Part shown: piece by piece, positions 25,618-28,600 of the stretch
How the letters are laid out: every line of letters begins with the position of its first letter
Position numbering within the stretch: position 1 is the stretch's first letter
Program-made: the position numbers
DNA from: Escherichia coli O157:H7
Lineage (GTDB): Bacteria > Pseudomonadota > Gammaproteobacteria > Enterobacterales > Enterobacteriaceae
DNA length: 64,000 bases
Strand: one strand, 5' to 3'
Assembly (NCBI RefSeq): GCF_013167455.1
Contig: NZ_CP038328.1

Positions 25618-28600
25618 TAATCTCATCACTTATGCCCGCACTCCCTTCCCCGAGTGCGGGTGTTTGCGCATAATTGACCCCTGTGCCTGAACTTACCACC
25701 TGGGTGAGTTCAGGTTTATTTCACTTCTTCCGTGACATTTTCATGTTCTTGCGGTCTAACACGAAGTGTTTTTAACGTCATTTAGACTGACCGACAACGG
25801 GCAGTTTTTTTATTACCAGGATAGTTGATCAGGGGTTCACATGCAGGGCACAAAAATTCGACTTTTAGCGGGCGGTTTGCTGATGATGGCCACTGCTGGC
25901 TATGTGCAGGCAGATGCGCTCCAGCCTGATCCAGCATGGCAACAGGGGACGCTTTCCAACGGTTTACAGTGGCAAGTGCTGACCACCCCCCAGCGTCCCA
26001 GCGATCGTGTTGAAATTCGCCTGCTGGTTAATACCGGTTCGCTCGCCGAAAGTACACAACAGAGCGGTTACAGTCACGCCATCCCTCGTATTGCGCTAAC
26101 GCAAAGCGGTGGCCTTGACGCAGCACAGGCGCGTTCATTGTGGCAGCAGGGGATCGACCCTAAACGCCCGATGCCGCCGGTAATTGTCTCTTATGACACC
26201 ACGCTGTTTAATCTGAGTTTGCCCAATAACCGTAACGATTTGCTGAAAGAGGCGCTCTCTTATCTGGCAAATGCCACTGGCAAACTGACTATCACGCCAG
26301 AAACCATCAACCACGCGCTGCAAAGTCAGGACATGGTGGCAACCTGGCCTGCCGATACTAAAGAGGGCTGGTGGCGCTATCGTCTGAAAGGGTCAACCTT
26401 GTTAGGTCACGATCCTGCCGATCCGCTGAAACAACCCGTTGAAGCGGAAAAAATTAAAGATTTCTATCAGAAATGGTACACCCCGGATGCAATGACGCTG
26501 CTGGTGGTGGGAAACGTGGATGCGCGCTCGGTCGTCGACCAAATCAACAAAACGTTTGGCGAACTGAAAGGCAAACGTGAAACACCGGCTCCGGTGCCGA
26601 CGCTTTCTCCGCTGCGTGCGGAAGCGGTGAGTATTATGACTGACGCGGTGCGTCAGGACCGGTTATCTATCATGTGGGATACGCCGTGGCAGCCGATTCG
26701 TGAATCAGCCGCACTGCTGCGCTACTGGCGTGCGGACCTGGCCCGTGAGGCGCTGTTCTGGCATGTTCAGCAAGCGTTAAGCGCCAGTAACAGCAAAGAC
26801 ATCGGTCTTGGATTTGACTGCCGTGTGCTGTATCTGCGTGCGCAGTGTGCCATCAACATCGAATCACCAAACGACAAGCTGAACAGCAACCTTAATCTGG
26901 TGGCGCGTGAACTGGCGAAGGTTCGCGATAAAGGTCTGCCGGAAGAAGAGTTCAATGCGTTAGTGGCGCAAAAGAAACTGGAGCTGCAGAAACTGTTTGC
27001 CGCCTATGCACGGGCTGATACCGATATTCTGATGGGCCAGCGGATGCGTTCGTTGCAAAATCAGGTCGTCGATATCGCGCCGGAGCAGTATCAGAAACTG
27101 CGGCAGGATTTCCTTAACAGCCTGACTGTGGAGATGTTAAATCAGGATCTGCGTCAGCAGTTGTCGAATGATATGGCGTTAATACTGCTGCAGCCGAAAG
27201 GCGAGCCGGAATTTAACATGAAAGCGTTGCAGGCGGCCTGGGATCAAATCATGGCCCCATCTACCGCCGCTGCGACCACCTCTGTCGCCACGGATGACGT
27301 ACATCCTGAAGTGACGGATATTCCACCTGCACAGTAATGCCTGATGGTGATGAGTTAGCACAACCATCAGGTATTTATGGATGAGCTGGATAGAGGGGTA
27401 ACTCTTTATCCAGCCTTTTGCATATGCTGCGTTTACGCTGGCATCGCCTCACGCGGGATAATCGCGCCGCGATACTGAATAACGGTACTTGCGGTCAGGT
27501 GCCCGCGTTTCGCTGCGTTTTCCGCACTGCCGCCCGTCAAACGTACCGCCAGATAACCGGCACTGAAAGAGTCGCCAGCTGCGGTGGTATCGATCACTTT
27601 TTCTTTCGGCAGTTTCACCGCCGGAACATCCACTAACCCTTCGCCAGCAATGGACACCAGGCAAGAATCCGCCCCGCGTTTCACCACCACTTCTTTCACG
27701 CCCGCGTTATGGGTGCGCGCAATGACGTCTTCCACCGGCTGTTGACCCCACAGCGCGTCTTCATCGTCCAGCGTCAGGAAGGCGATATCCGTGCATTCCA
27801 GCATTTGTTGGTACACCTGCTGTGTCTCTTCTTTGCTGGCCCACAGGCGCGGACGATAGTTATTGTCGAAAATCACTTTTCCGCCGTTGGCGCGGCATTC
27901 GCGCAGCAGGGAAAGCAGCTTTTCGCGGCTGGTCGGGCTTAAGATCGCCAGGCTAATCCCGCTCAGGTAGAGATAATCGAAATTCGCCAGCTCTTCGCAA
28001 ATCGCCGCGGATTGATCGCTCTCCAGCCAGAATTTGGCGGCGGCTTCGTTACGCCAGTAGTAGAACGTACGTTCGCCGGTGCTGTCGGTTTCAATGTAGT
28101 AAAGGCCCGGCAGACGGTTTTCCATCCGTTGGGTCAGGGAAGTATCAACGTTCTCGCCGTGCCAGGCGTCCAGCATCTGCTGGCTAAAACTGTCCGTTCC
28201 CAGCGCCGTTACGTAATGAACGGTTAATGCCGCAGGATCGACCTGACGGGCGATATAGACGGAAGTGTTCAGGGTATCGCCGCCGAAACCGCGCTTAACG
28301 TCCGCGCCTTTCTCGGAAAGCTCAATCATGCATTCGCCAATCACGGCAATCTTTTTGGACATAGTCGTGAACCTGATCTGTAAAAAATTAGCGTTAGTTT
28401 GCGCTGTGGTGGTTTGCTGGTCAACCATATTAAAACAGTGTTCCATTATTTTTTTGAGCCAGAACGTATTCCTGAAAGATTCCGTTGTGGAGTGGGGAAA
28501 TTTACCCCGGCCAGGCGGTAAAGTTCTGCCCTTGCGCGCCGATAATCTTTGTCGAGTCCGGGCTGCATCACTTTTAAACACAGGACATCTTTGATGATAA

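What the first reader, a model, noticed from the sequence alone, without database searches (positions are those of the whole stretch)
25635..25713. Two tandem hairpins in the dctA-yhjJ spacer
After the dctA terminator (25635-25666) there is a second, longer near-perfect palindrome (cctgaacttaccacctgggtgagttcagg, 25686-25713) followed by tttatttc. It could be a second terminator, a protein-binding palindrome, or the 3' end of a small transcript.
Basis: seen in the sequence. Interest (0 to 1): 0.2.

Follow-up and report, generated by a model that had tools for sequence, protein, structure and literature searches.

The report
dctA terminator plus conserved 3'UTR hairpin
The second hairpin is the ordinary Rho-independent terminator where E. 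coli dctA transcripts end, and the first is not the terminator but a stem-loop conserved across Enterobacteriaceae, joined to an invariant TGCGCATAAT box of unknown role.

Summary
Both hairpins are real. Hairpin 1 is 25632-25663 (-20.4 kcal/mol). Hairpin 2 is 25685-25715 (-21.1 kcal/mol) followed by UUUAUUUC. No shuffle of either sequence folds as well. The spacer is identical to E. coli K-12.

Published Term-seq (Adams 2021) puts a strong RNA 3' end at window 25720, inside the U-tract of hairpin 2. That end is not Rho-dependent and has an intrinsic-terminator score of 6.3. No sense-strand 3' end follows hairpin 1. So hairpin 2 is the working dctA terminator, not hairpin 1. It sits just upstream of a sigmaE-type yhjJ promoter.

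The palindrome is single-copy in 5421 of 5426 E. coli genomes, so it is not a repeat family. Its sequence turns over between genera while pairing is kept, which argues against a protein-binding site. It is absent in about 20 of 80 species.

Hairpin 1 is the better-conserved element. It occurs in all 80 Enterobacteriaceae examined, and 11 of 12 pairs show compensatory changes. A near-invariant TGCGCATAAT box follows it. The box and the hairpin loop look like a -10/-35 promoter pair.

The most likely role for hairpin 1 is a 3'-end stabiliser or leftover terminator, possibly overlapping a promoter. I could not retrieve 5'-end data, so that question stays open. Overall this is ordinary, with a modest unexplained part.

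The parts
24334..25620 (+). dctA coding sequence (C4-dicarboxylate transporter). Its stop codon ends at 25620.
   Evidence: ORF list. RefSeq annotation of identical or near-identical E. coli DNA.
25632..25663 (+). Hairpin 1: a 12-bp stem (core 25635-25643 with 25652-25660) and an 8-nt loop CCUUCCCC. It is a conserved stem-loop in the dctA 3' UTR, not the mapped termination site.
   Evidence: -20.4 kcal/mol, z = -5.3. In 62 distinct Enterobacteriaceae sequences, 11 of 12 pairs have changes on both sides, and 84% of cells are paired versus 36-45% in slid controls. Many G.U pairs point to + strand RNA. No sense-strand Term-seq 3' end follows it.
25665..25674 (+). Near-invariant box TGCGCATAAT. 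CATAAT (25669-25674) is -10-like. The loop TTCCCC (25646-25651) lies 17 bp upstream; in most genera it reads TTGNNN.
   Evidence: Invariant columns G-ATAAT, present in 79 of 80 species. The -35/-10 pair meets the scan criteria in 37 of 80 species but not in the window, which scores 8 of 12. Function not shown.
25685..25715 (+). Hairpin 2: a 13-bp stem with a 5-nt loop. This is the stem of the functional intrinsic terminator.
   Evidence: -21.1 kcal/mol, z = -5.8, versus only -14.9 on the minus strand. Reported by the terminator scan. In the Escherichia/Citrobacter/Salmonella clade 84% of cells are paired versus 26-55% slid, and 5 pairs have double changes.
25716..25722 (+). U-tract (UUAUUUC) of the terminator. 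The mapped RNA 3' end is at 25720.
   Evidence: Adams et al. 2021 Term-seq: K-12 3682061(-), score 65831.9, Rho 'No', intrinsic score 6.32. Coordinate transfer verified on identical sequence. The U-tail weight of 3.68 is above the 99th percentile of 15-mers in the window.
25732..25760 (+). SigmaE-type yhjJ promoter: GTGACATTTT (-35 region) and CGGTCTAAC (-10 region). Predicted +1 is about 25765. It overlaps a weak published PhoB ChIP site.
   Evidence: Conserved in all genera including Serratia. It matches the consensus GGAACTTTT / (T/C)GGTCAAAA. yhjJ is a sigmaE regulon member. The PhoB motif GAACATGAAAATGTCACG at K-12 3682037 corresponds to window 25731-25748. The start site is inferred.
25785..25811 (+). 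Hairpin 3 plus a U7 run in the predicted yhjJ leader. It is context, not part of the original finding.
   Evidence: A hairpin is present in nearly all 80 species with different sequences, median -10.7 kcal/mol. Tail weight 5.19. No Term-seq 3' end was reported there.
25841..27337 (+). yhjJ coding sequence (periplasmic M16-family peptidase).
   Evidence: Synteny with dctA holds in 80 of 80 Enterobacteriaceae and in 2 Serratia.

Best explanation
Hairpin 2 with its UUUAUUU tail is the Rho-independent terminator at which dctA transcripts end in E. coli. RNA polymerase coming from dctA transcribes the 13-bp stem, pauses on the U-tract and releases RNA ending at 25720. This keeps catabolite-controlled dctA transcription out of the sigmaE-controlled yhjJ promoter that starts about 12 nt further on. 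The T-rich block it uses as a U-tract is conserved in all genera as the A/T-rich region upstream of that promoter. Hairpin 1 is not the main release site. It is a conserved G+C-rich stem-loop in the dctA 3' UTR that occupies the position of the single canonical terminator found in Serratia. In Enterobacteriaceae its U-tract has been replaced by the TGCGCATAAT box. Hairpin 1 most likely acts as a barrier to 3'-to-5' exonucleases, protecting the dctA message, and in the Escherichia/Salmonella/C. freundii clade (tail GUUUG) perhaps as a weak first terminator. What is shown: the structures, their conservation and covariation, the in vivo 3' end and its Rho-independence, and single-copy status. What is inferred: the insulation role, the stabiliser role of hairpin 1, and its descent from an ancestral terminator.
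For: Structure and significance come, and the terminator scan hit for hairpin 2 only. Published Term-seq gives a 3' end at K-12 3682061(-), which is window 25720, in LB at OD 0.4, with Rho 'No' and intrinsic score 6.32 (above the 3.0 threshold). That end is absent from the M63-glucose list, where dctA is catabolite-repressed (established knowledge), which fits a dctA origin. No sense-strand 3' end lies between 25620 and 25720. U-tail weights are 3.68 for hairpin 2 and 2.26 for hairpin 1. Hairpin 2 pairing is maintained through sequence turnover in Escherichia, Citrobacter and Salmonella. Hairpin 1 covaries across 62 distinct sequences with abundant + strand G.U pairs. An antisense RNA 3' end lies exactly at the base of hairpin 1 (25632) with no U-tract, as expected of an exonuclease-blocking stem. 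Two Serratia species have one canonical hairpin plus U-tract at the hairpin 1 position and no box. yhjJ has its own sigmaE promoter.
Against: Term-seq cannot tell termination from processing, and the end was called in only one of three conditions. About 20 of 80 species lack hairpin 2, and in Klebsiella and Raoultella its U-tract is displaced, so 'the dctA terminator' holds only for part of the family. A pure stabiliser role does not explain the near-invariance of the hairpin 1 loop (CCCTTG) or of the TGCGCATAAT box. Adams et al. kept this 3' end in their '5' UTR' table. Under their filter that requires a mapped transcription start 21-200 nt upstream, so some of the RNA ending here may not come from dctA.
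Confidence: 0.7

Rival explanations
1. Hairpin 2 is, additionally or instead, the 3' end of a very short independent transcript, or a leader attenuator. The conserved TTGNNN-17 bp-CATAAT motif (-35 in the hairpin 1 loop, -10 in the box) would be a promoter starting near 25681. In E. coli it would make an RNA of about 40 nt that stops at 25720. Where hairpin 2 is absent or read through, it would serve as a second yhjJ promoter.
For: CATAAT is invariant in 79 of 80 species, and TT(G) sits at fixed 17-18 bp spacing. The pair meets the scan criteria in 37 of 80 species. The motif also resembles the sigma32 consensus as I recall it (CCCTTGAA-14 nt-GCGCATAA), which I did not check against a source. 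The Adams et al. filter kept this 3' end only if a mapped start lies 21-200 nt upstream, and CATAAT is the best -10-like hexamer in that range.
Against: In the window the -35 is TTCCCC, giving 8 of 12 matches, and the promoter scan reports no + strand promoter. The 3' end is missing in M63 glucose, as expected for a dctA-derived RNA. No start-site table could be retrieved. The qualifying start could lie inside dctA.
Confidence: 0.2
2. One reading: classic tandem terminators, with hairpin 1 the primary dctA terminator and hairpin 2 a backup.
For: Hairpin 1 is strong and G+C-rich, and in E. coli it is followed by UGUUUG, whose tail weight is near the 95th percentile. It occupies the position of the canonical Serratia terminator.
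Against: No sense-strand 3' end was called after hairpin 1 in LB OD 0.4, LB OD 2.0 or M63, while the end at hairpin 2 is among the strong ones. Hairpin 1 fails the terminator scan. In most genera the tail is CUCCUGCG.
Confidence: 0.1
3. The two hairpins and the conserved single-stranded box between them form a 3'UTR-derived, Hfq- or ProQ-associated small RNA, with the box as seed and hairpin 2 as terminator.
For: The architecture (5' stem-loop, conserved linker, terminator) resembles that of such sRNAs, and the 3' end is abundant.
Against: In RIL-seq the yhjJ.dctA.IGR has 14 chimeras, 1 interaction, SIC score -1 (target-like) and an sRNA score of 3.6e-5. There is no Rfam match. Hairpin 2 is missing in about 20 species that keep the box. 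No paper describing it was found.
Confidence: 0.06
4. Hairpin 2 is a DNA palindrome bound by a dimeric regulator, or a member of a repeat family such as REP/BIME.
For: It is a near-perfect 29-bp inverted repeat.
Against: There is one copy in the window and one per genome in 5421 E. coli genomes. The arms differ by a T.G position that is tolerated only in + strand RNA, so the fold is -21.1 versus -14.9 kcal/mol. The half-site sequence is not conserved between genera while pairing is.
Confidence: 0.03

Closest known systems
Canonical Rho-independent (intrinsic) terminators of E. coli
   Same: Hairpin 2 has a 13-bp G+C-containing stem, a 5-nt loop and an adjacent U-rich tract. The in vivo 3' end lies in the U-tract. 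It is insensitive to bicyclomycin and works on one strand only.
   Different: The U-tract is interrupted (UUUAUUUC). It also forms part of the conserved A/T-rich region upstream of the next gene's sigmaE promoter. Termination efficiency has not been measured.
Protective 3' stem-loops that block 3'-to-5' exonucleases (for example REP-type stabilisers and trimmed ends of Rho-terminated transcripts; Dar and Sorek 2018, title and abstract only)
   Same: Hairpin 1 is a stable G+C-rich stem with no usable U-tract near the end of an mRNA. An antisense RNA ends exactly at its base.
   Different: It is single-copy, not a REP. Its loop and 3' flank are conserved far beyond what a simple barrier needs. 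In E. coli the mapped sense 3' end is at hairpin 2, so trimming back to hairpin 1 has not been observed.
Tandem terminators and terminator-promoter junctions between co-directional genes
   Same: Two hairpins lie in a 100-nt stretch between two co-directional genes that are regulated differently (CRP/DcuR-controlled dctA and sigmaE-controlled yhjJ).
   Different: Only the second hairpin shows a 3' end. The first carries a promoter-like -35/-10 pair.
3'UTR-derived sRNAs (CpxQ, SdhX, DapZ type; from general knowledge)
   Same: Location at the end of an mRNA, sharing its terminator, with a conserved linker sequence.
   Different: RIL-seq gives the region a target-like rather than sRNA-like signature. 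The terminator is not conserved wherever the linker is.

Membership tests
Intrinsic terminator (hairpin 2) | Stable G+C-containing stem-loop (stem at least 5 bp, loop 3-8 nt) | tested here: met
   13 pairs, 6 of them G-C, loop 5 nt, -21.1 kcal/mol, z = -5.8.
Intrinsic terminator (hairpin 2) | U-rich tract immediately 3' of the stem | tested here: met
   TTTATTTC. It passes the scan criterion, and its tail weight of 3.68 is above the 99th percentile of 15-mers in the window.
Intrinsic terminator (hairpin 2) | RNA 3' end in the U-tract in vivo, independent of Rho | tested here: met
   Published Term-seq end at window 25720. Rho score 1.2, 'No'. Intrinsic score 6.32. This comes from the literature, not a new experiment.
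Intrinsic terminator (hairpin 2) | Measured termination in vitro or in a reporter | not testable with these tools
   Needs single-round transcription or a terminator-probe fusion.
Intrinsic terminator (hairpin 1) | U-rich tract immediately 3' of the stem | tested here: not met
   UGUUUGCG has 4 U in 8 and is not reported by the scan. Tail weight is 2.26. Most genera have CUCCUGCG.
Intrinsic terminator (hairpin 1) | Sense-strand RNA 3' end just after the stem | tested here: not met
   No row between K-12 3682061 and 3683250 on the minus strand in any of the three Term-seq conditions.
Interspersed repeat family (REP/BIME/ERIC-like) | Multiple copies per genome | tested here: not met
   One match in the window with up to 3 mismatches. 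Median of 1 place per genome in 5421 E. coli genomes. The covariance model finds one copy in 64 kb.
Sigma70-type promoter (loop + box) | -10 hexamer close to TATAAT | tested here: met
   CATAAT, 5 of 6, at 25669-25674. Present in 79 of 80 species.
Sigma70-type promoter (loop + box) | -35 hexamer close to TTGACA at 16-18 bp | tested here: inconclusive
   The window has TTCCCC (3 of 6), which fails the scan. Most other genera have TTGNNN (3-4 of 6). 37 of 80 species reach 9 of 12.
Sigma70-type promoter (loop + box) | Mapped primary 5' end 6-9 nt downstream of the -10 | not testable with these tools
   Start-site tables were not retrievable. The only evidence is indirect, from the filter rule of Adams et al..
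Hfq-dependent 3'UTR-derived sRNA | sRNA-like behaviour in Hfq RIL-seq (many partners, second position in chimeras) | tested here: not met
   yhjJ.dctA.IGR: 14 chimeras, 1 interaction, SIC -1, sRNA score 3.6e-5.
Any curated RNA family (Rfam 15) | Covariance-model match | tested here: not met
   No match in 25600-25840 even at E up to 10.
Protein-binding DNA palindrome | Conserved half-site sequence; symmetry at the DNA level | tested here: not met
   The sequence turns over while pairing is kept. G.U positions favour the + strand RNA fold. Absent in about 20 of 80 species.

The most novel reading that the evidence does not exclude
Hairpin 1 and the invariant TGCGCATAAT box form a dual-coded element found across Enterobacteriaceae. 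It would be an RNA stem-loop closing the dctA message whose loop and 3' flank also act as the -35 and -10 of a promoter. That promoter would fire straight into hairpin 2, making hairpin 2 a leader attenuator for a second, non-sigmaE route to yhjJ expression and producing a ~40-nt RNA in E. coli. In addition, the ACCCCUG just after the box is an exact complement of the yhjJ Shine-Dalgarno, so long transcripts would be translationally silent and only sigmaE-initiated ones productive.
Probability: 0.15. Interest if true: 0.5.

Novelty: new member of a known kind. Interest (0 to 1): 0.25.

Why it matters
The practical result is a corrected annotation. The dctA transcription unit ends at window 25720, 100 nt after the stop codon, at the second hairpin and not the first. 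Published Term-seq labelled this end 'orphan' and listed it as a possible yhjJ 5'-UTR event. It is better read as the dctA terminator sitting against the sigmaE promoter of yhjJ. The modestly interesting residue is hairpin 1 with its box. This 49-nt element is conserved with strong covariation in every Enterobacteriaceae genus examined, is absent from Serratia, matches no Rfam family, and has conservation that a plain terminator or stabiliser does not fully explain. If it proves to be a promoter embedded in an RNA hairpin, it would be a compact example of overlapping RNA-level and DNA-level coding at a gene boundary.

Tried and rejected
- **Repeat family:** rejected. There is a single copy in the window and in each E. 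coli genome.
- **Rfam:** no family matches in the spacer.
- **Antisense small ORF:** starts at the ATG inside ATTATG and gives 13 aa (MRKHPHSGKGVRA) in E. coli. Rejected because its length ranges from 5 to more than 67 aa across species, 10 species have a stop at codon 6, and the Shine-Dalgarno is not conserved.
- **Plus-strand small ORFs in the spacer:** the 33-aa TTG ORF at 25674-25775 crosses the variable hairpin 2 segment and was not pursued.
- **3'UTR sRNA:** the RIL-seq signature is target-like, and no paper describes one.
- **Transcription start tables:** I tried Thomason 2015 (not held), Cappable-seq, SMRT-Cappable-seq, Kim 2012, SEnd-seq (not held) and Nanopore. The promoter question therefore stays open.
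- **Rhodius 2006 sigmaE tables:** not held as text. The sigmaE promoter assignment rests on the consensus quoted in that paper's text plus regulon membership from other papers.
- **Breaking dctA-yhjJ synteny:** I looked for genomes where the two genes are not adjacent, to see which gene the box follows. Synteny held even in Serratia, so the test could not be made. Serratia lacks the box altogether.
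Full report
**Observation.** The window is E. coli. The 341 bases around the site match 5422 of 5426 complete E. 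coli genomes at 95-100% identity, under annotations dctA and yhjJ. The 220-nt dctA-yhjJ spacer (25621-25840) is identical to K-12 MG1655.

Both hairpins exist:
- Hairpin 1 is 25632-25663 (core 25635-25660, loop CCUUCCCC). It folds at -20.4 kcal/mol, z = -5.3.
- Hairpin 2 is 25685-25715. It folds at -21.1 kcal/mol, z = -5.8.
- For both, 0 of 200 shuffles fold as well.

Hairpin 2 folds less well on the minus strand (-14.9 kcal/mol) because of G.U positions. Only hairpin 2 passes the terminator scan: 13 pairs, loop of 5, tail TTATTTCACT.

**Is it a repeat?** No. Each hairpin sequence occurs once in the window with up to 3 mismatches allowed. A 49-nt query around hairpin 2 finds a median of one place per genome in 5421 of 5426 E. 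coli genomes, and 5365 of those are at least 99% identical.

**3' end mapping already exists.** Supplementary file 1 of Adams et al. 2021 (eLife, PMC7815308) lists a Term-seq 3' end at K-12 3682061 on the minus strand.
- Its score is 65831.9 and its class is 'orphan'.
- The flanking sequence is ATAATTGACCCCTGTGCCTGAACTTACCACCTGGGTGAGTTCAGGTTTATT|TCACTTCTTC.
- On the identical sequence this is window 25720, that is ...GGUUUAUU-3', 100 nt past the dctA stop and 121 nt before the yhjJ start.
- Supplementary file 3 gives a Rho score of 1.2 ('No') and an intrinsic-terminator score of 6.32. The paper treats scores above 3.0 as predictive of intrinsic termination.
- The row appears once. From its position in the file it belongs to the LB OD 0.4 sheet. 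It is absent from the M63-glucose list, where dctA is catabolite-repressed (established knowledge).
- No sense-strand end is listed between the dctA stop and 25720 in any condition.

Hairpin 2, not hairpin 1, is therefore where the RNA ends.

A weak end on the opposite strand (K-12 3682149+, score 956, M63) maps to window 25632. That is exactly the base of the hairpin 1 complement, and no U-tract follows it. This is how a stem that stops exonucleases would look.

One caveat. Adams et al. kept the 25720 end in their '5' UTR' table. Under their filter this requires a mapped transcription start 21-200 nt upstream.

**Comparative picture.** A scan of one genome per species returned 80 Enterobacteriaceae loci. 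All have yhjJ directly after dctA, and most spacers are 185-250 nt. The alignment shows the following blocks.

1. **Hairpin 1.** It is present in every genus. On 62 distinct sequences, 84% of cells pair versus 36-45% when partners are slid. 11 of 12 pairs change on both sides, and no shuffle out of 500 reaches the observed values. G.U pairs are frequent, for example U-A 31 versus U-G 24 at one pair. This is therefore an RNA structure on the dctA strand.

2. **The box after hairpin 1.** A near-invariant TGCGCATAAT lies directly 3' of hairpin 1 (CTCCTGCGCATAAT in most genera, GTTTGCGCATAAT in Escherichia, Salmonella and the C. freundii group). The loop holds a conserved CCCTTG. A covariance model of hairpin plus box finds one hit in the window (25628-25676, 61 bits) and one in Cronobacter, which was not in the training set. 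It finds none in two Serratia loci. Serratia instead has a single canonical hairpin plus U-tract at that position.

3. **Hairpin 2.** It lies in a 34-nt segment of variable sequence.
   - In Escherichia, Citrobacter and Salmonella the hairpin is in register. 84% of cells pair versus 26-55% slid, and 5 pairs have double changes. These include U-A to C-G within Escherichia.
   - Klebsiella and Raoultella have a different strong hairpin with a displaced U-tract. Enterobacter has only weak pairing.
   - About 20 species (Trabulsiella, Superficieibacter, Pluralibacter, Atlantibacter, Cronobacter and others) lack the segment.

4. **The yhjJ promoter.** The T-rich ATTTCAC block that follows, together with GTGACATTTT...CGGTCTAAC (25732-25760), is conserved everywhere, Serratia included. 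It matches the sigmaE consensus GGAACTTTT / (T/C)GGTCAAAA with about 16-nt spacing. yhjJ is induced 8-fold by sigmaE and listed in the Rhodius regulon. It also has a high-affinity sigmaE ChIP peak in Salmonella.

**Mechanism.** The best-supported reading is that dctA transcripts terminate intrinsically at hairpin 2. In the E. coli clade hairpin 2 abuts the conserved T-rich block upstream of the sigmaE promoter and uses it as its U-tract. This separates CRP-controlled dctA from envelope-stress-controlled yhjJ.

Hairpin 1 stands where Serratia has its terminator but has lost the U-tract. Its tail weight is 2.26 against 3.68 for hairpin 2. I infer that it now serves mainly as a protective 3' stem and perhaps as a weak first terminator in E. 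coli. This part is inference, and it does not explain why the loop and the box are so conserved.

**The open alternative.** The loop TTG and the box CATAAT sit 17 bp apart, which is promoter geometry. The pair meets the scan criteria in 37 of 80 species, but E. coli has TTCCCC and reaches only 8 of 12. A start near 25681 would run straight into hairpin 2 and give an RNA of about 40 nt. This would also explain why Adams et al. retained the site. I could not obtain any transcription start table to settle it.

**Rejected readings.**
- An Hfq sRNA: the RIL-seq signature is target-like.
- An antisense 13-aa ORF: not conserved.
- An Rfam family: none matches.
- A DNA operator: the sequence turns over while pairing is maintained.

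**Verdict.** Hairpin 2 is an ordinary intrinsic terminator whose 3' end is already in published data. Hairpin 1 is mislabelled as the terminator and is a conserved 3'-UTR stem-loop joined to an unexplained invariant box. Interest is low to modest.

Noticed in passing
window 25785-25811: A third hairpin (GACUGACCG-ACAA-CGGGCAGUU) is followed by seven U's. It lies between the predicted sigmaE start (~25765) and the yhjJ ribosome-binding site. A hairpin with a different sequence and a U-rich tail occupies this position in nearly all 80 species (median -10.7 kcal/mol). No Term-seq 3' end is reported there. It could be a leader attenuator or an Hfq/sRNA module.
   Followed up: partly
window 25732-25760: A sigmaE-type promoter for yhjJ: GTGACATTTT ... 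CGGTCTAAC, conserved from Escherichia to Serratia. A weak published PhoB ChIP-seq site (motif GAACATGAAAATGTCACG, K-12 3682037) overlaps its -35 region at window 25731-25748. yhjJ RNA did not change significantly in a phoB deletion strain.
   Followed up: partly
window 25677-25683 and 25830-25836: ACCCCUG just after the box is a perfect complement of the yhjJ Shine-Dalgarno CAGGGGU. In silico the Shine-Dalgarno is fully paired in a dctA read-through RNA but largely open in an RNA starting at the sigmaE start. CCCCT follows the box in 35 of 79 species. The match was noticed after the fact and is untested.
   Followed up: partly
window 25815-25840: The 26 nt before the yhjJ start codon (ACCAGGATAGTTGATCAGGGGTTCAC) are almost invariant across 80 species, far more than a ribosome-binding site needs. 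RIL-seq records the yhjJ.dctA intergenic region as a target-like partner of a highly connected sRNA.
   Followed up: no
window 25632, minus strand: A published Term-seq 3' end of an antisense RNA (K-12 3682149+, M63 glucose, score 956) lies exactly at the base of the hairpin 1 complement. The promoter of that antisense RNA is unknown.
   Followed up: no
window 24531 (inside dctA, 197 nt into the ORF): A strong ORF-internal Term-seq 3' end (K-12 3683250-, score 48378). Adams et al. note that a Term-seq 3' end lies immediately downstream of the predicted MgrR pairing site in dctA.
   Followed up: no
L061 3872-4615, L078, L026: Three species carry insertions in the spacer. Enterobacter sp. BIGb0383 has about 737 nt and Klebsiella indica about 125 nt, both between the box and the sigmaE promoter. 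C. amalonaticus S646 has about 100 nt after the promoter. The content of the insertions was not examined.
   Followed up: no
window 27385-27414: A terminator-like hairpin (13 pairs, loop of 4) lies just after the yhjJ stop, in the convergent gap towards kdgK.
   Followed up: no
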